From positions 367-64,366 of the forward strand of contig JBAYKY010000001.1 in the NCBI GenBank assembly GCA_041664385.1: a stretch of 64,000 bases of DNA. Reading direction: 5' to 3'. The notes under the pieces are model-generated. The model had not been told where the DNA came from, did not search any database, and saw only the letters and a list, made by a program, of their open reading frames with translations. This document shows positions 28,810 to 63,093 of this stretch, piece after piece (the first letter of the stretch is position 1; the number at the start of each line of letters is the position of its first letter). Both the position numbers and the translations under genes were made by a program. This DNA comes from Minisyncoccota bacterium. GTDB lineage: Bacteria; Patescibacteriota; Minisyncoccia; UBA6257; GWB1-50-10.

Positions 28810-29948
28810 ACATATTGATAGACGTGCGATTATTGAGTAAGGGACGAATTTCTGGCATTGAAGAATACACAAAATCTCTTATTCATAGCCTTTTAAAAGA
28901 AGGAAGCAAAGATACATTTCATTTTTTCTATAATGGTTTTCGCAAAGCACCTTTTCCTACAGAATGGAAAACGGCACCCAATGCCCATCTTATTGAATGG
29001 AATATTCCTAATAAACTCCTTGACCTTACCACGCGTTTTTTAGGATGGCCCCGCGTTGAACAGATTGCGCATGTCGACCTTGTCTTCAGCCCTCATTTCA
29101 ATCTCTTGCCCGCTACTAAGCACACCAAAAGAGTAATTACGTTTCACGATCTCTCATTTCTTCATTTTCCTGAATTTTATCCATTACGAAAAAGACTTTG
29201 GCACTGGCAACAGGATTATCGTACTCAAGCAATGCGTGCCGATGCACTTATCGCGGTTTCAGAATTTACGAGACAAGACCTTATATCCACATTTCATCTA
29301 CCAGAAGAAAAAGTGCATACCGTCTATTCCGGTATCAATCCTTTTTTCTCTGAATTGCCAGAAGAAAGTCCAGAACGTGCACGCTTTGCAAAAGAAAAAA
29401 ATCTTCAGCAACCATTTCTTTTATTTACAGGAGTGCTTGAACCACGTAAAAATGTGTCAGGAATCATCCGTGCATTTAATGAGATTAAAAAAAATCCATA
29501 TCACCGTGAATTACAACTCGTTATTGTCGGAAGGAAAGGCTGGCTCTATGATACAATTTTTAGAGATGCAGCAATGTCTCCCTGGTCACGCGACATTCGT
29601 TTTTGGGGAGAGGCATCTCTTGAAGATTTAAACCTTCTTTATAATCTTGCATCAGTATTTGTATATCCATCATTTTTTGAAGGATTCGGGTTCCCACCAC
29701 TTGAAGCACAGGCATGCGGCCTCCCGGTAATTACCTCAAATCGTTCATCATTACCTGAAATTGTAGGAGAAAGCGCACTTCTCGTTGATCCTTGGAAAAC
29801 TGACGAACTCATTACTTCAATTGACCTTGTGCTCCGTGATACTACGCTCGCAAACGATCTTAAGAAACGGGGGCGAATAAACAGTACGCGATTTTCTTGG
29901 CAACAGACCGCAACACAACTTCTTGAACTTTTTCATTCGCTCATTTAA
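28806..29948 (+). CDS. Glycosyltransferase family 4
   Basis: VYPSFFEGFGFPPLEAQACGLPVITS; start overlaps the upstream GT4 stop (ATGA). Confidence 0.85.
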   Translation: MNILIDVRLLSKGRISGIEEYTKSLIHSLLKEGSKDTFHFFYNGFRKAPFPTEWKTAPNAHLIEWNIPNKLLDLTTRFLGWPRVEQIAHVDLVFSPHFNLLPATKHTKRVITFHDLSFLHFPEFYPLRKRLWHWQQDYRTQAMRADALIAVSEFTRQDLISTFHLPEEKVHTVYSGINPFFSELPEESPERARFAKEKNLQQPFLLFTGVLEPRKNVSGIIRAFNEIKKNPYHRELQLVIVGRKGWLYDTIFRDAAMSPWSRDIRFWGEASLEDLNLLYNLASVFVYPSFFEGFGFPPLEAQACGLPVITSNRSSLPEIVGESALLVDPWKTDELITSIDLVLRDTTLANDLKKRGRINSTRFSWQQTATQLLELFHSLI

Positions 29949-29952
29949 CTCT

Positions 29953-32046
29953 ATGGCTCAAAAGGTTCCTATAAAAAACATTGATCCCGTTCTCGTTGAT
30001 ATAAAAAATCCGCGTATAAACTATACGTGGTCGTCTCATCACAAAATCATCGATTTGCGCAAAACACCTATGCATGAAGGAGGAAACTCGCGCACCATAA
30101 AATTTATTTTAAAAACTACACTTTTTGCAGTACTTGGTGTAGTTGCATTAGGAATTGTGTTTGAATCCTTCGTGCTCTTTCAAACAAAAGATGTGGTAAA
30201 AAGTGCCGGAGAAAAGATTGCACAAAATTTCTCGGTATCAGTAGATGCATTTCAAAATTTAGAACCCGATAAGGCAACGGCCGCACTCAAACAAAATGGT
30301 ACAGAGATTCATGAACTTGATGCCATTCTTGAAAATCGTCACACCTCAGGCTTCTTGAGCCTCCTCGGAACGATTATCCCCACATTCCGTGAGGCGGGGT
30401 CGCTTATAAAGCATGTGGCGACGCTCAATATGAGTTTCTTAAAACTTGCGGAAACAACGGATACCTTAAAACAAGATGGATTTACTGATTTTCAATCAAA
30501 TGGGGAAGTGCTCATCGAAAAAATGACACGCGCCCGAAACGCAATAAACAGCATTCTTGTTGAAGCACAAATAATTAAAAATGCGACTACAAATCTTAGA
30601 AAACTTTCTTCATTTTTTGATAAAGTAGATAGCGTAGTTGGAGAGAAATATCTCGCCCATAGTGCGGATCTCTATCGTGGAGATGCCGCGATTGAACATT
30701 TCTTATTGCTTGTAGGCTCCGAAAAAGAAAAGCACATTGCACTTTTTTTTCAAAATCCTGCAGAAATAAGACCAGGAGGTGGATTTATTGGAAGCTATGC
30801 GGATATGACCATACAAAAAGGACAAATGACCAATCTTGATGTCCGTGATATTTACGACCCAGATGGCCAATTTTTTGGAAAAATTACTCCTCCTTATCAA
30901 TTGCAAACCGTAAGCGAAAATTGGGGTGCTCGTGATGCAAATTGGTTTTTCGATTTTCCTACTTCTGCGAAAACAGTACTTGGTTTTCTTGAAGAATCAA
31001 AAATGTATTCCGAAAAAGGAATCACCTTTGATGGAGCCATCGCCATTAATATAGAAGTTATTGAAACACTTCTTTCGGTAACGGGACCCATTCCACTTCC
31101 TGAGTACAACCTTACCATCACGAGCGAAAACTTCCTTCCAGAGGTACAACGAGAAGTTGAGGCAGGAAAGGATAAGGCAGCAGGTCAACCAAAGAAGATA
31201 TTAAAGGTACTTACTCCAATGCTTCTTGAAAAACTAAAAGGTCTTGATGCAACAGGGAAAACGGATCTTATTAAGAAATTCACAAGTCACATTGGAAAGA
31301 AAGATATTATGTTCTATATGAAAGATAATGAGTTGTCATCGTTTTTAAATGACGCGAAAGCAAATGGAGCACTCTATGAAATTCCACGCGATTTTTGGGG
31401 TTCCTATCTTGCTGTTGTTGATGCAAATATAGCAGGCGGAAAAACAGATGCATTTATGACACAAGCAGTAAGTGCGGAAGTAAATGTTGATACAAGTGGT
31501 TCCATTCTTACCGATGTAACGGTAACGCGCACTCATAAAGGAGGGGCTCAAAAAGATCCTTGGTGGAATGCGGATAATAAAAACTTTATTCAAGTACTCA
31601 TGAATCCAGGTTCAAATCTTGTCACTATGAAGGGAAATACCGTAAAGCTGATAAAACCTACATTTGATTACGAAGCAAACGGCTATAGCAAAAATCCCGA
31701 TCTTGAGCGCATCGATTCATCGCGCGTTGCGCTTCCTGGATTTAACGCATGGACAATGAGTGAATTTGGCAAAACAGCATTTGCCACCTGGTTTACAGTT
31801 GCTCCCAAAAAAACAGGGACCTTGACGCTACGGGTACATACCGACAATACTGCGGAGGCGCCTCCTGAGGAAGGAAAGAAATACACCTTCGTATACGAAC
31901 GCCAATCGGGTGTTCCTACAAAGCTTTCGGTATCTGTTTCGGCCCCCGTTGGTTTTCTCTGGGCCGAATCGGGAACACCACTCTATACATTTACAAGTGA
32001 TGATGTGGAAGGACGCACACTGTTTACTCTCGAATTAAAACGATAA
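29953..32046 (+). CDS. DUF4012-like large membrane-anchored extracellular protein
   Basis: N-terminal TM helix then about 620 aa; FFQNPAEIRPGGGFIGSYADM resembles the DUF4012 signature; sits next to glycosyltransferases. Confidence 0.45.
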   Translation: MAQKVPIKNIDPVLVDIKNPRINYTWSSHHKIIDLRKTPMHEGGNSRTIKFILKTTLFAVLGVVALGIVFESFVLFQTKDVVKSAGEKIAQNFSVSVDAFQNLEPDKATAALKQNGTEIHELDAILENRHTSGFLSLLGTIIPTFREAGSLIKHVATLNMSFLKLAETTDTLKQDGFTDFQSNGEVLIEKMTRARNAINSILVEAQIIKNATTNLRKLSSFFDKVDSVVGEKYLAHSADLYRGDAAIEHFLLLVGSEKEKHIALFFQNPAEIRPGGGFIGSYADMTIQKGQMTNLDVRDIYDPDGQFFGKITPPYQLQTVSENWGARDANWFFDFPTSAKTVLGFLEESKMYSEKGITFDGAIAINIEVIETLLSVTGPIPLPEYNLTITSENFLPEVQREVEAGKDKAAGQPKKILKVLTPMLLEKLKGLDATGKTDLIKKFTSHIGKKDIMFYMKDNELSSFLNDAKANGALYEIPRDFWGSYLAVVDANIAGGKTDAFMTQAVSAEVNVDTSGSILTDVTVTRTHKGGAQKDPWWNADNKNFIQVLMNPGSNLVTMKGNTVKLIKPTFDYEANGYSKNPDLERIDSSRVALPGFNAWTMSEFGKTAFATWFTVAPKKTGTLTLRVHTDNTAEAPPEEGKKYTFVYERQSGVPTKLSVSVSAPVGFLWAESGTPLYTFTSDDVEGRTLFTLELKR

Positions 32047-54052: not shown

Positions 54053-54085
54053 AAAAACTCCTCACATACGTGAGGAGTTTTTATT
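54053..54085. terminator. Bidirectional rho-independent terminator
   Basis: AAAAACTCCTCAC-ATAC-GTGAGGAGTTTTTATT. Confidence 0.75.
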
Positions 54086-54512
54086 AGATGTTGGTTCCTT
54101 GCACTATTCCTTCTTTAGATTTTCTGAAGAATGAATCAAGACTTAGTACGTCGGGACCAAAGAAGAAAACAGCGAAAGTTGCAATGACAATACCATAATC
54201 ACGCACGCCTATCGCGTTATAACCCACAATAAGAGTAATATCGAGCATATGCACCGCGAGAAGAAGTGCGCTCACTCTCGTAAAAAATCCGAAAAGAAGT
54301 GCCAAACCAAATACTATTTCAAATGCGCCATTACAATACACAAGCATTTGAGCACTCACAGGGGAAAGTGCCACAATTGATTTCGGAATATAACTCACCC
54401 ACATAAGAGGGGAGATAAGTTGCTGTAAACCAAACCATAAATACACAACGGTTATTCCAATACGAAGAAATGCAGGGGCAATAAGTGGAAATCGATTCAT
54501 AAAATTATTCAT
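54084..54512 (-). CDS. DoxX-family membrane protein
   Basis: Four TM helices; DoxX-like pattern. Confidence 0.75.
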   Translation of the reverse strand: MNNFMNRFPLIAPAFLRIGITVVYLWFGLQQLISPLMWVSYIPKSIVALSPVSAQMLVYCNGAFEIVFGLALLFGFFTRVSALLLAVHMLDITLIVGYNAIGVRDYGIVIATFAVFFFGPDVLSLDSFFRKSKEGIVQGTNI

Positions 54513-54518
54513 ACTCTT

Positions 54519-54953
54519 TTATTTAAGAATACCAATCTTAAGAGAAGCGAGTTCGCTCTCCGGACTTCGCCTTCCTCCATGCTGATCAACAAACGATGCG
54601 GTGCTATCATTTCCACACATACTAATAATAGCCTCGGAGCCTCCAGGATGCTGATTAATCCATTCAGTAAGATTATACACTCCGCCACGCACCACACTCC
54701 AACAATCCTGAGCATTATCATGCCTCGTCACTTCCACGAGGGTATAACTTTTTTCCCCTTGTGTAGTAGGAACGGACGCTTGTGCGGGTGCTGCAGGCAC
54801 TTTCTGACCACCCACCAAACTTGAAGTTGCACTTTGTGGTACAGGCTTTCCAACCGAAATTTGTATAGTTACCTGACTTCGCACGAACACAATACCAATA
54901 ATAATGAGTCCCGCAACACCGAGAAATACGATTGTAGAAGTTATTTTATTCAT
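54519..54953 (-). CDS. Membrane-anchored cytochrome b5-like heme-binding domain protein
   Basis: TM anchor; VTRHDNAQDCWSVVRGGVYNLTEWINQHPGG matches the cyt-b5 fold (HPGG heme-ligand motif). Confidence 0.8.
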   Translation of the reverse strand: MNKITSTIVFLGVAGLIIIGIVFVRSQVTIQISVGKPVPQSATSSLVGGQKVPAAPAQASVPTTQGEKSYTLVEVTRHDNAQDCWSVVRGGVYNLTEWINQHPGGSEAIISMCGNDSTASFVDQHGGRRSPESELASLKIGILK

Positions 54954-55025: not shown

Positions 55026-55418
55026 TTACTGTTTTTTCTTCTTTCTTTTAATTTTCTCCCAAAATTCAGTAGAATTTCGTTTTCTGAAATTTGTTTCTTT
55101 CTCCGCGTGTAGCTTACAAAAAGGATGATCTCCTGCAAATTGTGTATGTCGAATCCATACTGCATCCGCACTACACTCAATACACTGCTTTTGATTCTTA
55201 CTTCCTTTGCGAATCAAAATCATGGATACAAAAATACGAATTTTTTGTTTTGCACCACACGAAGGACATTTAATTTCTTCTTGTCCACAATTCTTGTTCG
55301 CCCAATATGTGGAACTTCCCAAAGGCAAAAGACACTCAAAGAGGTCTGTTTCTATACCGTGAGAACACTTCAAACAAGGGAACGCTCCTTTAAGATTGTT
55401 TCTTTGCGCGCGTGCCAT
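55026..55418 (-). CDS. Small zinc-ribbon protein (paralog of 58420-58653)
   Basis: PCLKCSHGIE...CPSCGAKQKI plus a second Cys/His pair CIECS...CKLH; basic C-terminal tail. Confidence 0.5.
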   Translation of the reverse strand: MARAQRNNLKGAFPCLKCSHGIETDLFECLLPLGSSTYWANKNCGQEEIKCPSCGAKQKIRIFVSMILIRKGSKNQKQCIECSADAVWIRHTQFAGDHPFCKLHAEKETNFRKRNSTEFWEKIKRKKKKQ

Positions 55419-55547
55419 GACCGAATCTCCCTTCTTTATTGTTAAATAGCATTGCTGCCGTCTGGAACAGATACTAGCACTCCAACAAAAAATTGCAAAA
55501 TTACTACTATTTCTAATAAAAACCCCGCTCTTAAGGCGGGGAATGAG

Positions 55548-56243
55548 TCATCCATCAATGCCGAGATATTTTAAATTTCGAAAAAGTGGTTGTTCTAAAT
55601 CGAAATAGCGATCAACTATGTTTTTTGGTTTTTCCAAAAGTGGCACGATTTTTATATCGGGCCATGGATGTATACTGCAAGGAAAGGGAACAGATGTATT
55701 CTCAATGAGAACGGTGTTCAGCGTCGAGCCAGCTTGTTTAAGGATGAAATTGCGGTGAATACCATCAGTAATCACCATATCGTTTCCATGCATTTCAACA
55801 AGCGGCGGAAGATAGCACGCAAGCGCTGGCTCATTTGAGCCGTTGATGCCAAAAATAAAATAAGCACCAAGATCGCTCAATCCGCCATTCACCGCAAGAA
55901 AACCTTGAAAAATGTTTGGAATATTTTCAAGCATCTTCTGATAATTCTCACGATAGATGAATTTCTGACCAATCTTCAAATAGCGCGGGTCTATCTTTAT
56001 CATCTGTATTCGCGCTCGCGCATACGGAAGTTGCCCATCCATCGTTTGAATACGTTGAATAAGATGAAGCAAGAGATCCGTACTTATGGGAATCGGCGGG
56101 GAAGTAATGGTGGTAATATCTCGCAAGGGAACAATGCGCTTCACTGCCTTTACATTTGGCAAATGAAGTTGAGTTTCAAACTCATTAAGCGAAAGTGCAA
56201 TGCGATTCAAAAAATCGTCGGTTTGTATTTGCCATGCGGGCAT
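55548..56243 (-). CDS. Hypothetical protein with ParB/sulfiredoxin-like DG-x-HR motif
   Basis: VITDGIHRNFILKQAG resembles the ParB N-terminal nuclease/CTP-binding motif. Confidence 0.45.
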   Translation of the reverse strand: MPAWQIQTDDFLNRIALSLNEFETQLHLPNVKAVKRIVPLRDITTITSPPIPISTDLLLHLIQRIQTMDGQLPYARARIQMIKIDPRYLKIGQKFIYRENYQKMLENIPNIFQGFLAVNGGLSDLGAYFIFGINGSNEPALACYLPPLVEMHGNDMVITDGIHRNFILKQAGSTLNTVLIENTSVPFPCSIHPWPDIKIVPLLEKPKNIVDRYFDLEQPLFRNLKYLGIDG

Positions 56244-56407
56244 AAGTAATTCCTTTCTTTTTTATTGGTAAGCTTCTGTAAAAAAGCATACGCGCAATGA
56301 TAGAGATGAGTCAATAATCTGAGGATATTGACTTTTATACTAAAATAGCGTATTCTAATGTCAGTTCACTTTATTACTCAACTATCATATTTGAAAGGAA
56401 ATCAGTT

Positions 56408-56923
56408 ATGCTCACCATAAAAGGTGTTCGGATCTATCGCATAGATGCGGATCTGGGAAAGACTCACTTCTTCTCACATGTGCATCCGCGCTCATTGTCT
56501 CCACTTCAAAAAATATCATTTGGAAAATTTGAGATGGAAGATATTGCAATGCGTTTACTTACTCTTTCCATTGAAGCAAAGCAATGGGTTGGCGCGTCAT
56601 TCCGTGATTTTGTGTTGAGTGAGCAGCTTCGCATGCGCGATACTATTCGCAAAAAATTACCAAAATTTGGTTATATGACACGAGTTCCAAAACTTCCGAA
56701 AAATGCTGAACATATTCCAACTGCATTTTCAGGAAGAATGGGGGCTATGTCAGAAATTTCAACCGTCAAAGGATTTCCACTCAGTGTGGTTATAGGAATC
56801 GGAATGCTTCAAGAAAAAGGGATGATAGCTATTTCTCATGAAAGTCGTGAGGATGTTATTGTGCCAACAGAAGCACTCATTCTTAAAGTTTTGAAGCCGA
56901 GACTCTTATCCTCAAAGCTATAA
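56408..56923 (+). CDS. Hypothetical protein (171 aa)
   Basis: ORF; terminator follows. Confidence 0.4.
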   Translation: MLTIKGVRIYRIDADLGKTHFFSHVHPRSLSPLQKISFGKFEMEDIAMRLLTLSIEAKQWVGASFRDFVLSEQLRMRDTIRKKLPKFGYMTRVPKLPKNAEHIPTAFSGRMGAMSEISTVKGFPLSVVIGIGMLQEKGMIAISHESREDVIVPTEALILKVLKPRLLSSKL

Positions 56924-56941
56924 AACGAAAGTAAGAATATA

Positions 56942-56967
56942 AAAGCCGCGTACTATACGCGGCTTTC
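56942..56967 (+). terminator. Rho-independent terminator
   Basis: AAAGCCGCGTA-CTA-TACGCGGCTTT. Confidence 0.65.
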
Positions 56968-56987
56968 TATTGAATAAAAACGGCTCG

Positions 56988-57719
56988 TTATGAGCCGTTC
57001 AAGTTTTTTGCTTCGAGCGTTGAGAGAATTTGCTCGGCAATAGTGCTTACCATTTCCTGTTCACCAAGGGTCGTAGTGTTCAAAAGATGGAGATTCGGAT
57101 TGGTGGGAGAAAGTACCTTATACGCCGCCTCATAGCGCGAAACAAGCGTTGCTATGGTTTTCGGATTCGATGTTTCTCCCGCTTTCTGCGAGAGCGCAAT
57201 ACGTAGTTCGCGCTGCATCGCATCTTCGGGATTACACACCATGAAATAGGCAGCATCAATTTCATTAATCCAGAGTCGACTCAAGAAAAAATTCTGATAA
57301 AGCTCTTTTTCTCTTGGGAGAAGTTTTTGTTTCTCTTCCCAATACATCATCCATACATAGGCGTCGAAAATGGCACGGTCAAAGATAACGAGGTCATATT
57401 GATGCCCTCGGCTTAAGTCGAGCAATAATGAAAGTGCATAGAGTCCGGTACGTATGTTATATACGGGTGTATCCCGGGTAATATGTCGAATTACTTCAGC
57501 ACCTTCTTGTGGTCGCCATACACGAAATCCCATACGACGAAAGAACTTATCAAGTTCCGTAATCGTGGTGGTCTTTCCTGCAGACGGGGAACCGGTTATT
57601 TCGATAAAGAACGGACGAGGCATAAATTCCTTATCGTATCGAATATTACTTTTCAAATACTGAAGCAAACGCTTTGCTTTTACTTCAAAGAGTGCTTCTT
57701 GATCTTGCGTAATGGTCAT
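56988..57719 (-). CDS. P-loop nucleoside/nucleotide kinase-like protein (deoxynucleoside-kinase-like)
   Basis: Walker A ITGSPSAGKTT; DRAIFDAYVW resembles the dNK ERS/DR motif region. Confidence 0.5.
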   Translation of the reverse strand: MTITQDQEALFEVKAKRLLQYLKSNIRYDKEFMPRPFFIEITGSPSAGKTTTITELDKFFRRMGFRVWRPQEGAEVIRHITRDTPVYNIRTGLYALSLLLDLSRGHQYDLVIFDRAIFDAYVWMMYWEEKQKLLPREKELYQNFFLSRLWINEIDAAYFMVCNPEDAMQRELRIALSQKAGETSNPKTIATLVSRYEAAYKVLSPTNPNLHLLNTTTLGEQEMVSTIAEQILSTLEAKNLNGS

Positions 57720-57770
57720 ACGACCTCCTTTTGTTGTACTAGTAATGAACTATTGATTAGAATAGAAGAA

Positions 57771-58349
57771 ATGAGGAAAAGAAGTCAATCAAATATAAAA
57801 ATAGGACTTGATATGGATGGGGTACTTATTGACCACACAGGAATTCGCATTAAGCTCGCTAAAGAATATGGCTTTGCCTTAATTCCCAAAGACACTCCTT
57901 CGGATATATTGCGCACTATCCTTCCCGATAAAGAGCGGTGGGCAATTCAAAATACAATTTACAATGATCCACTCGTTTCGCTTGAGGCGCCTCTCATTAA
58001 AAACGTTGAAGAAAGTTTAAAGCGACTAACAGAATTAGAAATTCCATTTTTTCTTATTTCTCGCAGAAAGGATGCGAATCTTGCAATGCGACTCCTTGAA
58101 GCACGTGGTATCTGGCCGCGCTATTTTAATCCTGAAAACACACACTTTGTTATAACTCCTGAGGATAAAGACACGGAGGCAATAAAGCTCGGGATTACAC
58201 ACTATGTGGACGATGAGACAAAAGTACTTAAAGCACTCAACTCCGTCCCACATAAAATACTTTTTGATCCCTACGATGCTCAAGAAGAGGGGGATTATGT
58301 ACGGGCTCACTCATGGGAAGATGTTATGCAACATTTTCTAAACCAATAA
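57771..58349 (+). CDS. HAD-superfamily 5'(3')-deoxyribonucleotidase-like hydrolase (NT5C-like)
   Basis: KIGLDMDGVLIDHT matches the NT5C-type DxDGV motif; the ORF portion upstream of 57771 overlaps the divergent kinase and is rejected. Confidence 0.6.
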   Translation: MRKRSQSNIKIGLDMDGVLIDHTGIRIKLAKEYGFALIPKDTPSDILRTILPDKERWAIQNTIYNDPLVSLEAPLIKNVEESLKRLTELEIPFFLISRRKDANLAMRLLEARGIWPRYFNPENTHFVITPEDKDTEAIKLGITHYVDDETKVLKALNSVPHKILFDPYDAQEEGDYVRAHSWEDVMQHFLNQ

Positions 58350-58419
58350 CCATTGACTTATTTGTTAATATATGATACTATCATCCCAGCAATTAATTCA
58401 CATTATTCTGGAGGTTTGA

Positions 58420-58653
58420 ATGAAGCATAGCGAAACAAATTTGAAAGCAACGCTTCCTTGTATCCATTGTGGGAAAGAAATCGAAGTGCATCTCTATGCG
58501 AGTCCACTTCATGGGGACGGCGGAAAAAGTTTGGGATATCAAGGAAATAAACATGGAGGTCGACAAGAAGTTATTTGTACTTCGTGTGGCACCAAACAAT
58601 TATTTGGTATTTCAATTAGTGTTGAAAAATGCGGCGTTACACTTGCTGCATAA
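58420..58653 (+). CDS. Small zinc-ribbon protein (paralog of 55026-55418)
   Basis: LPCIHCGKEIE...CTSCGTKQLF; GGAGG RBS 6 nt before ATG; terminator follows. Confidence 0.55.
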   Translation: MKHSETNLKATLPCIHCGKEIEVHLYASPLHGDGGKSLGYQGNKHGGRQEVICTSCGTKQLFGISISVEKCGVTLAA

Positions 58654-58654
58654 A

Positions 58655-58690
58655 AAGGAAATCCCGATATATATCGGGATTTTTTATTTT
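58655..58690 (+). terminator. Rho-independent terminator
   Basis: AAGGAAATCCCGATA-TATA-TCGGGATTTTTTATTTT. Confidence 0.75.
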
Positions 58691-58766
58691 GCCACTTCTT
58701 TGAATGTCCTGATTTTTTGTATTTATCCTTTCTGACTCCCGCGAGGAAGTAAATGATTCTTTCGTA

Positions 58767-59510
58767 TTATTCAAATTCTACGAAAAGCGGAGAGTGATCG
58801 GAAACTTCATCAGGCAAGACCTTAAAATTTATTTCCTTTACGTTGTCGGATAGAAAAATGTAATCAGCAAATCTTTCAGATTTCTTATAGTGGCTTGTGC
58901 GCGTAGAGGTAATATGGTGTTTTGCAATCAAATTTACCATTTCATTTTCTATCATATGCACGCTCTCGGTATCAGGCCGCAGATTAAAATCTCCGGAGAG
59001 TATTTTAGGAATGGCTCTATTTTTCTTCAAAAATGCGACGATTCTTTCCGACTGCTTTATGCGGATTAAGGTGTCTCCCTTGCCAGTTCCAGTCCAATGT
59101 CCATGCATATTCATAATAAGCACCTCTCTCTTATCCTTAATCTTTAGCCACTGAAGCTTTCTCCCGTGATCACTTTCATCTTCTGCGGTATATGCTTTAT
59201 TTTCATGAAGGCACACTTCGCCTGTTTCTAAAACTTCTATATCTTTTTTTACGAATGTCGCGAGTCCATAAAACTCACCATGAATTGGGCAAAAATAACC
59301 AATGTGATTCGTAAGTATAGATTGAATTTCATCAAAAAGTTTTTCATTGCCACCCTCTTCAAAAATAAAATCGGTAGTGCGCGTTGTTTCATCAAGATTG
59401 TGGAATATCTCCTGGAAGCAAAAGATATCGATGTCCTTATTTTTTAAAAGGAATTGAGAAAGGGGATCACGCAACTTTCCTGCTAATGTGTTTAACGTAA
59501 TGAGTTTCAT
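58767..59510 (-). CDS. Endonuclease/exonuclease/phosphatase (EEP) family protein
   Basis: N-terminal FCFQE and C-terminal SDHSPL catalytic motifs. Confidence 0.85.
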   Translation of the reverse strand: MKLITLNTLAGKLRDPLSQFLLKNKDIDIFCFQEIFHNLDETTRTTDFIFEEGGNEKLFDEIQSILTNHIGYFCPIHGEFYGLATFVKKDIEVLETGEVCLHENKAYTAEDESDHGRKLQWLKIKDKREVLIMNMHGHWTGTGKGDTLIRIKQSERIVAFLKKNRAIPKILSGDFNLRPDTESVHMIENEMVNLIAKHHITSTRTSHYKKSERFADYIFLSDNVKEINFKVLPDEVSDHSPLFVEFE

Positions 59511-59519
59511 ACTTATTTC

Positions 59520-60134
59520 TTAACTTAAAATTTTTATAAGTGCGTCGGTAACGGGCTTCAGCTCAAGAAGTTCTTCTTCAGGCGTATGCTGCAGTGATGG
59601 TTTATTCGTTATTTTAGAAATATAAAGAGCGCGGACTGGCATCTGGATATGTGATTTACCAAATATGTGATCTGTCAAGATAATTTCACGTCGCGATTCG
59701 GAAGTGCGAAGTGTGCCATCAGGATTTAATAACGCAAAAGCCTCAACCCATGCCGCATTTACACGACCACCGTGCTTCTTTGCAACACCCTGCCAAAATT
59801 TTAATAATGCTTCTGCAATTTCTTCTTGAGAAAGATTTTCTTTGTATATTCCCTCAAGCGCTGTCCTTTTGGGGGCTTCTACTAATCCTTCGCCTTCAAC
59901 CCAAAAACCAGTATCATTTGCAAGGATTGGCATGTCAGTTTTTCCAAAATAGGCACGCACCTTAATCTCCGCATTTTCAGCTAACGTGCTACCACTTTCT
60001 TCAACATCAAAATTTTCCAACCCTACATCACTCGGAATATGAATTTCAAAATCTAAACCAGTAGAAGCAATAAGATTTTTAAATCGTTCTACCTTCCCTT
60101 GGTTATATGTTCCGAGAAGTACCTCCTTTTTCAT
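59520..60134 (-). CDS. Non-canonical purine NTP pyrophosphatase (RdgB/Ham1 family)
   Basis: LLGTYNQGKVERFKNL...ENAEIKVRAYF...ANDTGFWVEGEG matches Ham1 motifs; start chosen at MKKEVLL. Confidence 0.75.
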   Translation of the reverse strand: MKKEVLLGTYNQGKVERFKNLIASTGLDFEIHIPSDVGLENFDVEESGSTLAENAEIKVRAYFGKTDMPILANDTGFWVEGEGLVEAPKRTALEGIYKENLSQEEIAEALLKFWQGVAKKHGGRVNAAWVEAFALLNPDGTLRTSESRREIILTDHIFGKSHIQMPVRALYISKITNKPSLQHTPEEELLELKPVTDALIKILS

Positions 60135-60135
60135 A

Positions 60136-60459
60136 TTATTTTTCTTCCTTAACTCCCCATTGCCAACGAGGTTTCTCACCGGTTTTATAACAGATAACGA
60201 GAAGTACTATAATTGCCGCAATTATCTTTCCAAAAAACCAGTAGAAATTTGCATCGATCGGCCCCATATTTGGTTCTAAATCAAGGCTGTTCCACAATAC
60301 AAACCCCAAGAAAAACGCGATTACGAGCCACCCTTGCCAAGTTACGGGAGTCCAGCCCCAACCATAGAGCTTTCGTTTAAACCAAAAATTCTCTGGGTTA
60401 TTCTTTAAATAAGAAATGTATTCTTTAAACATATGATAAGTATAATTGAAAATCTTCAA
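60136..60459 (-). CDS. Hypothetical membrane protein
   Basis: Two TM helices, Trp-rich. Confidence 0.4.
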   Translation of the reverse strand: MKIFNYTYHMFKEYISYLKNNPENFWFKRKLYGWGWTPVTWQGWLVIAFFLGFVLWNSLDLEPNMGPIDANFYWFFGKIIAAIIVLLVICYKTGEKPRWQWGVKEEK

Positions 60460-61464: not shown

Positions 61465-63093
61465 TTAAGATTGGAGTATTTTTGCTTTTCTTAGAATCGC
61501 ATGAACCGAGAGAGGGTAATTATGTACTTTTGTGAGCGCCTTCTTTGCCTGCTCCTTGGTAATAAACCCCACAGTCACCTCGCGCGCGAGGCGTGTGGCA
61601 TCAGGGTGAAATCCTAGGAGACGTCTTGCCTTGTTTTCCGCCGCTCGTGCAAATAAGCACGAATTCGCATTCGATTCAATAAGAAACTCACCCTTAGGAA
61701 CTTTCCACCCCAACTCTTCGAGTATCTTTCGCGTGTCATTTATTCTCCGCTGTAAAAGAAAGGGGAGATGAACGATATAAACAGGAGGCTTATTTTTGAA
61801 TGGCTGCAATTTTCTGATGGCAGAAAAAACGAATTTCTTTGATTTGCTATCTTGACTCAAGCCCGCCCACTCGTTGATGCCAAGTACAACTACACTCACT
61901 TCATTTCGTATTGCTTCACCATAATAGGCTCGCACCACCAACCGCCTGCATAATTGGCATGTCCTCACAAAAGGAATACTATGTGCGCATTTTATGGAGT
62001 AATGTCTTCGTCCTTCTATATACCATTTGCGGAATTTCTCTTTCAATTCTTGTGAATCGCTTTCGTTATAGAGTGCTGCGGTCTTTTCGAAACATTTGCG
62101 GTCAACGGTCCGCGCATACTTCCTTATATCTATCCGCTGATGATCTACACCTAACTCTTTAGCAACTTGTGAGGACCTCGAAAATATATGATGCGGATAG
62201 TAGCCAGTATCGAAGGTGAACGAAAGGGGAGTAAAACCCATTTTTTTGATTTGATAGAGCGTCGCAGTACTATCCTTCCCACCCGAAATGCCTACCATAA
62301 CATCATACTTACCCCGCCCGCTTCTTATAAGGGACTTCAGAAATGCGAGTTCTTTGATAAGCGGCTTCTTGCTGAAGTTTTCTTCGTACCTCTCGCACGT
62401 CTCACAAAGTCCCGTGCTACCAATCGTACTTGAGAGATTCGTACTGGTATTCACACAATGAGCACACTCTCTTACTTCTATGAGAGCTTTTATTTTGGTG
62501 AATATCTCCTTTTTTGTCTGAAGCGCGGTATTGAACGATAAGTGAGCAATCTTCTCAACCTTATTCGTGGAAAAAAGACGCTCTTCGATATGGCGCTCTT
62601 TTTCTGCGGCCTTAAGAGAGAAATCTTCCCGCTTTGCCACTCGCTTACTCAAATCCTTCTCGGGAGTCTTCAAATATACCACGAGATACCCATTCTTCTT
62701 GAAGAATGTGGAATTATGATACCCACGTATGCCCGCAATAAGTACAAATTTTTTCGCATATCGTTTCTCGTGTATAAAAGTGAGTGTTTTTGCAATAACC
62801 GAAGGAGAATAACGATTCTTAAGATAAGTAAAAAATACACGCGCCTTTTCGCGTGGAATGGGGGAGCCCGATTTCTTGGTTTTTATTTTATTGATAACCT
62901 GAATAAACTTTTTCTCTTCACGAGGAAGACTATCTTTTATGGAAAAAGCAGGATGAACGACTGCCTGCGAGGCCTCAATATAGCTCGCCTTGGGAAATGC
63001 TTCGAGGAGCCACTTTGCTATCGTAGTCTTGCCACTCCCAGGAGCACCAAATATGACTATTCCCTTGTATGTATAAAATCCATCATCCTTCAT
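61465..63093 (-). CDS. Fusion protein: P-loop kinase-like domain + Cys4 zinc ribbon + PP-loop (SGGKDS) ATP-pyrophosphatase domain
   Basis: N-terminal GAPGSGKTTIAKWL; middle CAHC...CETCERY; C-terminal MVGISGGKDSTATL PP-loop motif. Confidence 0.6.
   Translation of the reverse strand: MKDDGFYTYKGIVIFGAPGSGKTTIAKWLLEAFPKASYIEASQAVVHPAFSIKDSLPREEKKFIQVINKIKTKKSGSPIPREKARVFFTYLKNRYSPSVIAKTLTFIHEKRYAKKFVLIAGIRGYHNSTFFKKNGYLVVYLKTPEKDLSKRVAKREDFSLKAAEKERHIEERLFSTNKVEKIAHLSFNTALQTKKEIFTKIKALIEVRECAHCVNTSTNLSSTIGSTGLCETCERYEENFSKKPLIKELAFLKSLIRSGRGKYDVMVGISGGKDSTATLYQIKKMGFTPLSFTFDTGYYPHHIFSRSSQVAKELGVDHQRIDIRKYARTVDRKCFEKTAALYNESDSQELKEKFRKWYIEGRRHYSIKCAHSIPFVRTCQLCRRLVVRAYYGEAIRNEVSVVVLGINEWAGLSQDSKSKKFVFSAIRKLQPFKNKPPVYIVHLPFLLQRRINDTRKILEELGWKVPKGEFLIESNANSCLFARAAENKARRLLGFHPDATRLAREVTVGFITKEQAKKALTKVHNYPLSVHAILRKAKILQS

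What the first reader, a model, noticed from the sequence alone, without database searches (positions are those of the whole stretch)
55026..60179. Cluster of nucleotide/nucleic-acid enzymes bracketed by paralogous zinc-ribbon proteins
Within 5 kb lie a ParB/Srx-like DG-x-HR protein, an unknown 171-aa protein, a P-loop deoxynucleoside-kinase-like protein divergently paired with an NT5C-type HAD 5'(3')-deoxyribonucleotidase-like protein (DMDGVL motif), an EEP-family nuclease and a Ham1/RdgB ITPase. Two small zinc-ribbon proteins with shared motifs (PC-x-C...C-x-SCG-x-KQ) sit at 55026-55418 and 58420-58653. The kinase+nucleotidase+nuclease+ITPase set is coherent with nucleotide scavenging in an organism lacking de novo synthesis. 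A split polynucleotide kinase/phosphatase-like end-healing activity, or a nucleic-acid-targeting defence/repair module involving the ParB-like and zinc-ribbon proteins, cannot be excluded from sequence alone.
Basis: partly seen in the sequence, partly recalled or inferred. Interest (0 to 1): 0.6.

Follow-up and report, generated by a model that had tools for sequence, protein, structure and literature searches.

The report
Conserved nucleotidase–kinase pair with ParB-like partner
In this small symbiotic-type bacterium (Patescibacteria), a nucleotide phosphatase gene and a nucleotide kinase gene sit head to head, often with a ParB-like nucleotide-binding protein; this trio recurs in many relatives and probably controls the nucleotide supply, while the other five genes of the reported cluster are just local neighbours.

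Summary
These are a ParB/Srx-fold protein, an unknown 171-aa protein, a P-loop kinase head-to-head with an NT5C-type HAD phosphatase, an EEP enzyme, a Ham1 ITPase and two paralogous zinc-ribbon proteins.

The eight genes are not one unit. Across about 100 related Patescibacteria loci only three genes travel together:
- The HAD phosphatase and the kinase form a divergent pair about 50 bp apart. The HAD lies within 2.5 kb of the kinase in 47 of 51 kinase-centred loci.
- The ParB-like protein is a facultative third member (11 of 51). It usually sits between the other two, and its presence is patchy on the kinase tree.

The ParB-like protein belongs to the recently defined 'ParB-CE' (conflict effector) family, which is predicted to target free nucleotides. 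The kinase has a thymidylate-kinase/deoxynucleoside-kinase fold, not a polynucleotide-kinase fold.

The zinc ribbons, the 171-aa protein and the EEP gene occur with the module only in this genome and one close relative; a Ham1 gene also lies near the trio in one distant locus (L004/L020). ZnR1 has no other homologue among 5.8 billion proteins.

Best reading: a nucleoside/nucleotide phosphorylation–dephosphorylation cycle for salvage and pool control, with ParB-CE feeding or gating it. A nucleotide-depletion immune role is not excluded. Moderately interesting; the biochemistry is untested.

The parts
57771..58349 (+). NT5C-type HAD phosphatase (192 aa). It is the hub of the conserved module.
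   Evidence: Pfam NT5C scores 25.9 bits against a cut-off of 24.8, and 6 of 14 orthologues hit NT5C (best 2.7e-9). Motifs I (DxDGV), II (SRR), III (K) and IV (DD) are invariant in 14 orthologues. It lies next to the kinase in 47 of 51 loci and next to ParB-CE in 23 of 28 loci.
56988..57719 (-). P-loop kinase with a thymidylate-kinase/deoxynucleoside-kinase fold (243 aa), transcribed divergently from the HAD gene.
57720..57770 (.). 51-bp head-to-head intergenic region shared by the kinase and HAD genes.
   Evidence: Sequence read. The same tight head-to-head spacing recurs in 39 non-redundant loci, where the median distance from HAD motif I to the kinase PRPF motif is 190 nt. No shared operator motif was found beyond AT-rich, promoter-like words.
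55548..56243 (-). ParB-CE family protein (ParB/Srx fold, 231 aa, DGIHR motif, invariant C-terminal LGIDG). It is the facultative third member of the module.
56408..56923 (+). Unknown 171-aa protein. It is a lineage-specific insertion between ParB-CE and the kinase, not part of the conserved module.
   Evidence: No Pfam, NCBIfam, PADLOC or PHROG hit. It was found only in the window's genome and in L006. pN/pS is 0.28, so it is a real gene.
55026..55418 (-). Zinc-ribbon protein ZnR1 (130 aa). It is a lineage-specific orphan and a paralogue of ZnR2.
   Evidence: BLASTP against ZnR2 gives E = 8e-12. Among 5.8 billion proteins the only homologue is itself. In L006 only a 64-aa fragment remains. A terminator-like hairpin separates it from ParB-CE.
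58420..58653 (+). Zinc-ribbon protein ZnR2 (77 aa), downstream of the HAD gene. Lineage-specific.
   Evidence: It is 93.5% identical in L006, with pN/pS 0.11. It is absent from all other loci.
58767..59510 (-). Endonuclease/exonuclease/phosphatase (EEP) family enzyme. A neighbour, not linked to the module elsewhere.
   Evidence: Pfam Exo_endo_phos E = 9.1e-12 over the full domain. There is no close PDB sequence relative. It occurs near the module only in the window's genome and L006, where it is split into two ORFs.
59520..60134 (-). Ham1/RdgB-type non-canonical NTP pyrophosphatase (204 aa). A neighbour.
   Evidence: Pfam Ham1p_like E = 8.5e-11. The N-terminal 80 residues align to E. coli RdgB/YggV, E = 2.4e-6. 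It lies near the trio in only one other locus, L004/L020.
56941..56967 (.). Terminator-like hairpin of 12 bp between the convergent 171-aa gene and the kinase gene.
   Evidence: This is a consensus scan only.

Best explanation
The conserved element inside the reported cluster is a small nucleotide-pool module specific to Patescibacteria (mainly Paceibacteria). It is not the eight-gene set.

Core. An NT5C-type HAD 5'-nucleotidase and a kinase with a thymidylate-kinase/deoxynucleoside-kinase fold are transcribed head to head from a shared intergenic region of about 50 bp. I infer that they run opposing reactions on the same (deoxy)nucleoside / (deoxy)nucleoside-monophosphate pool. That would be a substrate cycle like the deoxynucleoside-kinase / 5'(3')-deoxynucleotidase cycles that set dNTP pools in animal cells. 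Such a cycle would let an organism living on scavenged nucleosides and nucleotides trap, release or interconvert them.

Third member. In roughly a fifth of loci, including this one, a ParB-CE protein joins the pair. It has a ParB/Srx fold with the DGxHR nucleotide-phosphate pocket. I infer that it binds and probably hydrolyses (d)NTP/(d)NDP. It would then either feed monophosphates to the HAD enzyme or act as an NTP-sensing gate on the cycle.

Shown: the folds, the family memberships, intact catalytic motifs, purifying selection and the conserved gene linkage.

Inferred: the substrates, the direction of flux and the ParB-CE activity.

The two zinc-ribbon paralogues, the 171-aa protein, the EEP enzyme and the Ham1 ITPase are lineage-specific neighbours on an ordinary chromosomal stretch.
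For: Linkage:
- In 28 species-representative genome loci found with the ParB-CE profile, the HAD gene is within 2 kb in 23 and the kinase is directly downstream in 16.
- In 51 kinase-centred metagenome loci with enough flank, the HAD is adjacent in 47 and ParB-CE in 11. Five further kinase loci show the pair alone.
- Head-to-head spacing is conserved in 39 non-redundant loci.
- Host loci span GC 0.30-0.61.

Non-orthologous displacement and fusion support a phosphatase + kinase + ParB-CE logic:
- An AAA_33 kinase is fused to the NT5C-HAD next to ParB-CE in L026.
- A His_Phos_1 phosphatase replaces the HAD in L016.
- A NUDIX gene is inserted in L020.

Kinase: its fold is closest to TMPK and dNK, and its profile aligns to Dm-dNK.

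HAD: it passes the NT5C cut-off and all its motifs are intact.

ParB-CE: ParB/Srx fold and family membership.

Housekeeping character:
- Flanking genes are housekeeping: TopA, DprA, ribosomal proteins, Def/Fmt, MltG, ABC transporters.
- GC is uniform.
- There are no PADLOC hits and no relatives in viral contigs or phage genomes.
- pN/pS is 0.07-0.31.
Against: - No biochemical data exist for any member.
- Kinase and phosphatase acting on one substrate would be futile unless regulated.
- The kinase substrate is unresolved. Pfam's best sequence hit is AAA_28, the family that holds NadR ribosylnicotinamide kinase; dNK and TMPK Pfam models are below threshold.
- ParB-CE was defined as a predicted immune effector. 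Its patchy presence on the kinase tree, and an apparent xenologous replacement of the kinase between two close relatives, are features more typical of accessory or conflict genes.
- Whether these genomes lack a canonical tmk/dNK or de novo synthesis could not be checked.
- The module is present in only a subset of Patescibacteria: 349 ParB-CE clusters at 50% identity among 1.84 billion proteins.
Confidence: 0.5

Rival explanations
1. The trio is a nucleotide-depletion immune (abortive-infection type) system. ParB-CE and the HAD phosphatase would together strip (d)NTPs down to nucleosides on phage attack, as Calcineurin-CE plus HAD do in the PUA-Cal-HAD system. The kinase would act as a reset or antidote enzyme that rebuilds the pool, or as a sensor.
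For: - ParB-CE is by definition a predicted nucleotide-targeting conflict effector. 'CE' stands for conflict effector; the family description rests on my recollection of Nicastro et al. 2023, which could not be read here.
- Membership of that family is shown.
- ParB-CE's tightest partner is a phosphatase (23 of 28 loci), and another phosphatase type can replace it. This parallels the CE-effector + HAD pairing shown experimentally in PMC12871103.
- Variable partners look like conflict-system shuffling: AEP-like PF24387, a second ParB-CE paralogue, NUDIX and a long kinase paralogue.
- ParB-CE is patchily present, and the kinase shows xenologous replacement.
Against: - No sensor domain (PUA, STAND, etc.) accompanies the trio.
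- There are no PADLOC matches.
- It is not in a defence island; the flanks are housekeeping genes.
- The HAD|kinase pair persists without ParB-CE in about 78% of loci.
- The kinase is very strongly conserved at 62-81% identity, which is unusual for fast-evolving immune genes.
- No phage or viral copies were found.
Confidence: 0.2
2. The architecture is the same, but the substrate is the pyridine nucleoside. The kinase would be a ribosylnicotinamide kinase, the HAD an NMN 5'-nucleotidase, and ParB-CE (with NUDIX in some loci) would cleave NAD+ or ADP-ribose-type dinucleotides. Together they would form an NR/NMN/NAD salvage cycle.
For: - The only Pfam model the kinase passes is AAA_28, the family that includes the NadR RNK domain.
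- A NUDIX gene sits inside the trio in L020.
- CE-type effectors can cleave NAD+ in vitro (PMC12871103).
Against: - The profile-sequence match is to dNK, not NadR.
- The HAD's specific Pfam match is the deoxyribonucleotidase family NT5C.
- No NMN adenylyltransferase is linked.
Confidence: 0.12
3. A split polynucleotide kinase/phosphatase (T4 Pnkp-like) end-healing system for RNA or DNA repair, with ParB-CE acting as a nuclease or NTP-dependent accessory.
For: - T4 Pnkp combines a P-loop kinase with a DxDxT HAD phosphatase (established knowledge).
- One variant locus fuses an AAA_33 kinase, the Pfam family I recall as containing PNK-type kinases (not checked here), to the HAD.
- ParB/Srx domains can nick DNA (PMC5512222).
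- DNA-repair genes (MPG glycosylase, MGMT-like, DEDDh exonuclease) lie nearby in about 7 loci each.
Against: - The HAD matches NT5C, not the PNK3P phosphatase family.
- No ligase, Hen1 or RtcB partner appears in about 95 loci.
- The nearby repair genes are each present in a small minority of loci.
Confidence: 0.06
4. One reading: all eight genes, bracketed by the zinc-ribbon paralogues, work together as one scavenging or defence island.
For: The arrangement is retained in the relative L006, whose ParB-CE is about 90% identical. The genes share a nucleotide/nucleic-acid theme. ZnR1 follows ParB-CE and ZnR2 follows the HAD gene on the same strands.
Against: - ZnR1, ZnR2, the 171-aa protein and EEP are absent from all other loci that carry the trio or pair.
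- ZnR1 has no homologue elsewhere.
- In L006, ZnR1 is reduced to a fragment and EEP is split.
- Terminator-like hairpins separate the units.
- Ham1 is near the trio in only one other locus.
Confidence: 0.05

Closest known systems
ParB-CE (Pfam PF24392), the 'conflict effector' branch of the ParB/sulfiredoxin superfamily (Nicastro, Burroughs, Iyer & Aravind, NAR 2023)
   Same: The two share a full-length profile-profile match: probability 100%, E = 6.6e-42. They share the Q-x-Y-V, PPI(V/I)E, DGxHR and C-terminal RD...G..G motifs. Both have the ParB/Srx fold and are single-domain proteins of about 180-290 aa.
   Different: - The Patescibacteria clade is divergent. The window protein itself gets no Pfam hit, and its orthologues reach only about 27 bits.
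- It is linked to an NT5C-HAD and a TMPK/dNK-like kinase in housekeeping surroundings, not to sensor or immune modules.
- There is no PADLOC match.
- Whether this context was already noted in the 2023 paper could not be checked, because the paper is not held.
PUA-Calcineurin-CE-HAD anti-phage system (bioRxiv 2026, PMC12871103)
   Same: A 'CE'-class nucleotide-targeting enzyme is paired with a dedicated C1-cap HAD phosphatase. There the two enzymes dephosphorylate dNTPs stepwise.
   Different: The effector fold differs (ParB/Srx versus calcineurin-like). There is no PUA sensor. A kinase partner is present here and absent there. No defence phenotype or filament is known here.
Deoxynucleoside kinase / 5'(3')-deoxyribonucleotidase (NT5C/NT5M) substrate cycles of animal cells
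   Same: The enzyme families are the same: a kinase related to the dNK/TMPK fold and an NT5C-family HAD. Their opposing activities would regulate dNTP pools (established knowledge).
   Different: Here the two genes are physically coupled head to head in a bacterium. The kinase fails the Pfam dNK cut-off. A third, ParB-fold partner is added. The substrates are untested.
ParB/Srx-fold small-molecule kinases and ATP-using enzymes (SerK, SbnI, sulfiredoxin)
T4 polynucleotide kinase-phosphatase (Pnkp)
   Same: It combines a P-loop kinase with a DxDxT HAD phosphatase.
   Different: The kinase is structurally nearer to TMPK/dNK. The HAD is NT5C-like, not PNK3P-like. The proteins are separate, and there is no ligase partner.

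Membership tests
ParB/sulfiredoxin superfamily | ParB/Srx alpha+beta fold | tested here: met
ParB/sulfiredoxin superfamily | Conserved DGxHR / GxxR phosphate-binding motif | tested here: met
   D160, G161, H163 and R164 are invariant in 27 orthologues, and D, H and R are at least 90% conserved in 39 distant ParB-CE members.
ParB-CE (PF24392) | Significant match to the family profile | tested here: met
   The window protein itself has no hit at E <= 0.1. Five orthologues score 25-27 bits against a cut-off of 23. The family profile retrieves proteins of which 26 of 39 are PF24392 (best 2.7e-34). hhalign gives probability 100%, E = 6.6e-42.
ParB-CE (PF24392) | Effector position in an immune or conflict system | tested here: inconclusive
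   There is no PADLOC hit, no sensor domains, and the flanks are housekeeping genes. On the other hand, the partners are variable (AEP-like, NUDIX, a second ParB-CE) and the distribution is patchy.
ParB-CE (PF24392) | Nucleotide-degrading activity | not testable with these tools
   This needs an enzyme assay. As far as I know it is only a prediction even for the family as a whole.
Canonical ParB (ParABS partition protein) | HTH DNA-binding domain, C-terminal dimerisation domain, GERRxR box and a ParA partner | tested here: not met
   The protein is a single 231-aa domain with no ParBc or HTH Pfam hit. It has DGIHR in place of GERR. No ParA-type gene is adjacent in the window or in 28 loci.
AAA_28 (PF13521; includes NadR ribosylnicotinamide kinase) | Profile score above the gathering cut-off | tested here: met
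   The score is 34.9 bits against 27. Most homologues carry a precomputed PF13521 hit.
Deoxynucleoside kinase (PF01712) | Profile score above the cut-off | tested here: not met
   The score is 16.4 bits against 27. Only a few homologues carry PF01712.
Deoxynucleoside kinase / thymidylate kinase structural clade | Fold closest to TMPK/dNK, with a P-loop, a DR(x) motif after strand 3 and a LID | tested here: met
Deoxynucleoside kinase / thymidylate kinase structural clade | Substrate: nucleoside versus NMP, deoxy versus ribo | not testable with these tools
   This requires a kinase assay.
NT5C 5'(3')-deoxyribonucleotidase family (PF06941) | Profile score above the cut-off | tested here: met
   The score is 25.9 bits against 24.8 for the 192-aa gene, which is marginal, and 24.2 bits for the over-long ORF. 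Six of 14 orthologues match, best 2.7e-9. The profile against PDB gives only generic HAD hits, with beta-PGM at E = 0.013.
HAD phosphatase superfamily | Catalytic motifs I-IV | tested here: met
   D14 and D16 (DxDGV), S97 R98 R99, K133 and D147 D148 are invariant in 14 orthologues. An insert of about 80 aa forms the C1 cap.
T4-type polynucleotide kinase-phosphatase / RNA repair cassette | PNK-type kinase, PNK3P-type phosphatase and a ligase/Hen1 partner | tested here: not met
Endonuclease/exonuclease/phosphatase (PF03372) | Profile score above the cut-off and intact catalytic Glu and His | tested here: met
   The score is 45.6 bits against 24.5 over profile positions 22-225. FCFQE and SDHSP are visible in the translation. 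Nuclease versus phosphatase specificity was not resolved.
Ham1/RdgB ITPase (PF01725) | Profile score above the cut-off | tested here: met
   The score is 42.5 bits against 22.5, but only profile positions 2-130 of 186 align. RdgB aligns over the first 80 residues. The C-terminal third is divergent.
Known anti-phage defence systems (PADLOC-DB 2.0) | Match of any cluster protein to a defence-system model | tested here: not met
   There were no hits for the eight window proteins or for two variant partners.

The most novel reading that the evidence does not exclude
The HAD-ParB-CE-kinase trio is a self-contained, reversible nucleotide-depletion device of ultra-small symbiotic bacteria. ParB-CE and the HAD would collapse the (d)NTP pool on a danger or starvation signal, and the tightly co-regulated kinase would rebuild it. 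That would be an immune or dormancy switch with a built-in recovery arm. It would also be the first enzymatic role assigned to the ParB-CE branch and the first nucleotide-depletion defence described in Patescibacteria.
Probability: 0.15. Interest if true: 0.75.

Novelty: new variant of a known kind. Interest (0 to 1): 0.45.

Why it matters
Patescibacteria have tiny genomes and are thought to live on nucleotides taken from hosts or the environment, yet how they manage those pools is poorly known.

This is a three-gene module recurring across at least seven named candidate lineages and a wide GC range. It couples a nucleotidase, a nucleotide/nucleoside kinase and a ParB-fold protein from a family so far only predicted to attack free nucleotides in immune systems. 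That gives a concrete, cheap biochemical target: three small soluble proteins.

It could show one of two things. Either there is a housekeeping origin and role for the 'conflict effector' ParB branch, or nucleotide-depletion immunity extends to this phylum.

It also corrects the picture of the cluster. The zinc ribbons, the 171-aa protein and EEP recur only in the closest relative, and Ham1 lies near the trio in just one further locus, so these five genes should not be used to infer function.

Tried and rejected
- PADLOC and PHROGs gave no defence hits. They gave only weak phage 'thymidylate kinase' and unknown-function HAD families.
- There were no relatives of ParB-CE in IMG/VR. tblastn of the HAD and the kinase against 50,697 phage genomes found nothing.
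- Rfam found nothing in 53-62 kb.
- The AFDB50 fold library was unavailable.
- The defining ParB-CE paper (NAR 2023, PMC10681802) is not held. The family's predicted role is therefore cited from memory and from the citing preprint.
- A k-mer search for a shared operator in 38 HAD|kinase intergenic regions found only AT-rich, promoter-like words.
- A look-up of one window ORF (29923-32046) failed because its start codon differs from the public call.
- The idea that the 171-aa protein is a diverged AEP-like partner was rejected: it has no Pfam hit and no phmmer link to proteins in other loci.
- The idea that Ham1 belongs to the module was rejected: it is nearby in only 2 of about 95 loci.

Full report
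**What is there.**
The window is an ordinary chromosomal stretch of a Candidatus Paceibacterota (Patescibacteria) MAG. The source is JGI 3300037810, contig Ga0376277_0001604, 89 kb.
- GC is uniform at about 0.40.
- The flanks are housekeeping genes: TopA, DprA, L27, L9, Def, Fmt, MltG and ABC exporters.
There are two corrections. The HAD gene is 57771-58349 (192 aa), not the 288-aa ORF that overlaps the kinase. Ham1 is 59520-60134 (204 aa).

**Check of each gene.**
- *HAD.* It passes the NT5C cut-off marginally (25.9 against 24.8 bits; 6 of 14 orthologues hit NT5C). It keeps all four HAD motifs.
- *EEP and Ham1.* Both are clear Pfam members, although the C-terminal third of Ham1 is divergent.
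- *Zinc ribbons.* They are true paralogues (E = 8e-12).
- *Selection.* Against a relative whose ParB-CE is about 90% identical (L006), pN/pS is 0.07-0.33 for every alignable gene.

**What is conserved.**
I built a profile of the ParB-like family and fetched 28 loci from species-representative genomes.
- Using the window proteins as queries, the HAD gene lies within 2 kb of the ParB-like gene in 23 of 28 loci. It is usually directly upstream and divergent. The kinase lies directly downstream in 16 of 28.
- The canonical order is HAD(-)|ParB-like(+)-kinase(+).
- None of ZnR1, ZnR2, the 171-aa protein or EEP appears in any locus except the window's own genome and L006. Ham1 is nearby in one other locus.

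A reciprocal, kinase-centred sample gives the same picture. It comprised five loci from exact-protein look-ups and 78 metagenome loci.
- Of 51 loci with at least 1.5 kb upstream, 47 have the HAD head to head with the kinase. Eleven have the ParB-like gene, and ten have both.
- The distance between HAD motif I and the kinase PRPF motif has a median of 190 nt in 39 non-redundant loci. That implies an intergenic spacer of about 50 bp, as in the window (57720-57770).
- An all-against-all clustering of neighbours across about 95 loci found no other consistently linked family.
- On a neighbour-joining tree of the kinases, loci with and without the ParB-like gene are interleaved throughout.
- Host loci range from 30% to 61% GC. 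They include Yanofsky-, Giovannoni-, Lipton-, Jorgensen-, Nealson- and Magasanikbacteria, plus one contig binned as Planctomycetota.

In the window the trio is rearranged. The kinase sits directly against the HAD, and the 171-aa gene is inserted between the kinase and the ParB-like gene. All three still lie within 2.8 kb.

**Variant loci are informative.**
- L026 has an AAA_33 kinase fused to the NT5C-type HAD, next to the ParB-like gene.
- L016 has a His_Phos_1 phosphatase in place of the HAD, and an 'AEP-like' (PF24387) gene in place of the kinase.
- L015 has the AEP-like gene and a gene that by its sequence motif looks like a dCMP deaminase (no family scan was run).
- L023 has a second ParB-CE paralogue (PF24392, 4e-12).
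- L020 has a NUDIX gene inside the trio.
- L013 and L014 have a ROK kinase divergent from the ParB-like gene.
- Several loci add a 460-480-aa kinase paralogue with a C-terminal extension, which gives a weak CYTH hit in one case.

Displacement of one phosphatase by another, and of one kinase by another, argues that what is selected is the combination of activities: phosphatase, kinase and the ParB-like function.

**Identity of the ParB-like family.**
- Five orthologues pass the cut-off of Pfam PF24392 'ParB CE domain'.
- An exhaustive profile search found only 349 clusters at E <= 1e-3 among 1.84 billion representatives. All those listed (the best 150) are single-domain proteins or fragments of at most 297 aa.
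- Of 39 of the most distant listed hits, 26 are PF24392 members (best 2.7e-34).
- The two alignments match at probability 100%, E = 6.6e-42 over 212 columns, including the C-terminal motif.
- 'CE' means conflict effector (PMC12871103). As I recall the defining paper (Nicastro et al., NAR 2023), it predicts that specific ParB versions, like Calcineurin-CE, HD-CE and PRTase-CE, degrade free nucleotides in immune systems, and it traces them to housekeeping relatives. That paper could not be read here.
- The only experimentally studied '-CE' system I could read pairs Calcineurin-CE with a HAD phosphatase to convert dNTP to dNDP to dNMP.
- A 2025 survey shows that ParB-fold proteins bind CTP, ATP or GTP, and that stand-alone versions (SerK, SbnI, Srx) are ATP-using enzymes (PMC12704722).

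**Most likely mechanism (inferred).**
The HAD is the hub, because it is the commonest partner of both other genes.
- The kinase and the HAD, co-regulated from one short divergent region, most plausibly run opposite reactions on a (deoxy)nucleoside / monophosphate pool.
- That would be a bacterial, gene-linked counterpart of the dNK / 5'(3')-deoxynucleotidase substrate cycles that tune dNTP pools in animal cells (established knowledge).
- It makes sense in an organism dependent on scavenged nucleotides.
- ParB-CE, where present, would bind and probably hydrolyse (d)NTP/(d)NDP. It would either supply monophosphates to the HAD or act as an NTP-responsive gate.
- I put this at about 0.5.

**Rivals.**
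- *Nucleotide-depletion immune system, about 0.2.* For it: the ParB-CE family assignment, the CE+HAD precedent, the shuffled partners, the patchy presence, and an apparent xenologous replacement of the kinase. Between the window and L006 the HAD is 94.8% identical, ParB-CE 89.6% and ZnR2 93.5%, but the kinase only 65.4%, although the kinase is the best-conserved of the three in most other loci (19 of 23). Against it: there is no sensor, no PADLOC hit, housekeeping flanks, no viral copies, the pair persists without ParB-CE in about four fifths of loci, and the kinase is very strongly conserved.
- *An NR/NMN/NAD version of the same cycle, about 0.12.* It rests on the AAA_28/NadR similarity and the NUDIX insertion. 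TMPK/dNK and NT5C matches are stronger.
- *A split Pnkp-like end-healing system, about 0.06.* It is disfavoured by the kinase's structural neighbours, the HAD subtype and the lack of any ligase partner.
- *The eight-gene 'bracketed island', about 0.05.* It is essentially refuted by the census, by the orphan status of ZnR1, by the decay of ZnR1 and EEP in L006 and by terminator-like hairpins between the units.

**Novelty and score.**
- Each component belongs to a known family, so nothing here is categorically new.
- I could find no paper in the held library that mentions ParB-CE by that name (the related searches did not surface one either), and I am not aware of a description of the HAD|kinase pair.
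- The tight pair across Paceibacteria, and its recurrent capture of a ParB-CE protein, would be a new context for a family so far known only as a predicted immune effector.
- I rate it a new variant of a known kind, interest 0.45. This carries the caveat that the 2023 ParB-CE paper may already list this context.

Noticed in passing
window 56988-57719 versus L006 3658-4389: Apparent xenologous replacement of the kinase gene. Between the window and its close relative L006 the HAD is 94.8% identical, ParB-CE 89.6% and ZnR2 93.5% at the protein level, but the kinase is only 65.4% identical (71% at the DNA level). In most other loci (19 of 23 compared) the kinase is the best conserved of the three.
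   Followed up: partly
window 61465-63093 (-): A 542-aa fusion protein. It has an N-terminal P-loop kinase (AAA_18/AAA_33), then a Cys-rich stretch, then a PP-loop ATPase (SGGKDS) that matches WbuX-type N-acetyl-sugar amidotransferase (1.7e-18) and, weakly, QueC and NAD synthase. It lies 1.3 kb beyond Ham1 and is not linked to the module in other loci.
   Followed up: no
L015 10728-11354; L016 7790-8437: 'AEP-like' proteins (Pfam PF24387, E about 3e-31) sit directly next to the ParB-CE gene, where the kinase normally is. This may be a separate ParB-CE + AEP-like pairing.
   Followed up: partly
L026 10767-11867; L016 6180-7007; L023 7034-7681: Three variant loci. L026 has an AAA_33 kinase fused to the NT5C-type HAD. 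L016 has a His_Phos_1 phosphatase replacing the HAD. L023 has a second ParB-CE paralogue immediately downstream of the first.
   Followed up: partly
L007 2409-3746, L022 4402-5790, L085 574-1962, L101 2539-3978, L103 3576-4976 and others: A 445-480-aa paralogue of the kinase with a C-terminal extension of about 200 aa recurs near the HAD|kinase pair in about 8 loci. The extension gives a weak CYTH hit (8e-4) in one case and nothing in the others.
   Followed up: partly
window 55548-55562 (C-terminus of ParB-CE), alignment A1: Every orthologue ends exactly at ...(L/F)FR(D/N)LK(Y/F/H)(L/F/Y)G(I/V)DG-stop. The RD...G..G motif is also kept in distant ParB-CE members. A fixed C-terminal tail like this may be a docking or catalytic element.
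   Followed up: no
L006 1856-2635 and 6291-6485: In the close relative, the EEP gene is split into two ORFs and ZnR1 is reduced to a 64-aa fragment. Both genes therefore look dispensable, unless these are assembly errors.
   Followed up: no
window 58767-60134; L004/L020 13209-14667: Ham1 lies directly next to an endonuclease-type gene in both genomes. The endonuclease belongs to a different family in each: EEP in the window and AP_endonuc_2 (Nfo-like) in L020. This may be a small non-canonical-purine and AP-site repair pair, analogous by displacement.
   Followed up: no
L033 (JADFIX010000006.1, GC 0.59): A contig binned as Planctomycetota carries the kinase (E = 1.9e-59) divergent from a ParB-CE-like gene that is cut by the contig end. 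This is either spread outside Patescibacteria or a binning error.
   Followed up: no
window 54084-54953 (-): A cytochrome-b5-like protein (144 aa, with an N-terminal hydrophobic segment) is followed by a DoxX membrane protein. The pair is conserved as a pair in L006. It is an unusual redox pair for a Patescibacteria genome.
   Followed up: no
L012, L016, L021, L022, L027, L028, L084 and others, within 1-2 kb of the trio: Small MGMT/ATL-like proteins (the PCHRV motif, about 85 aa) and a CsaA/Trbp111-type tRNA-binding protein recur next to the trio in 7-10 loci. These identities rest on sequence motifs only; no family scan was run. This is probably clade synteny and was not analysed further.
   Followed up: no
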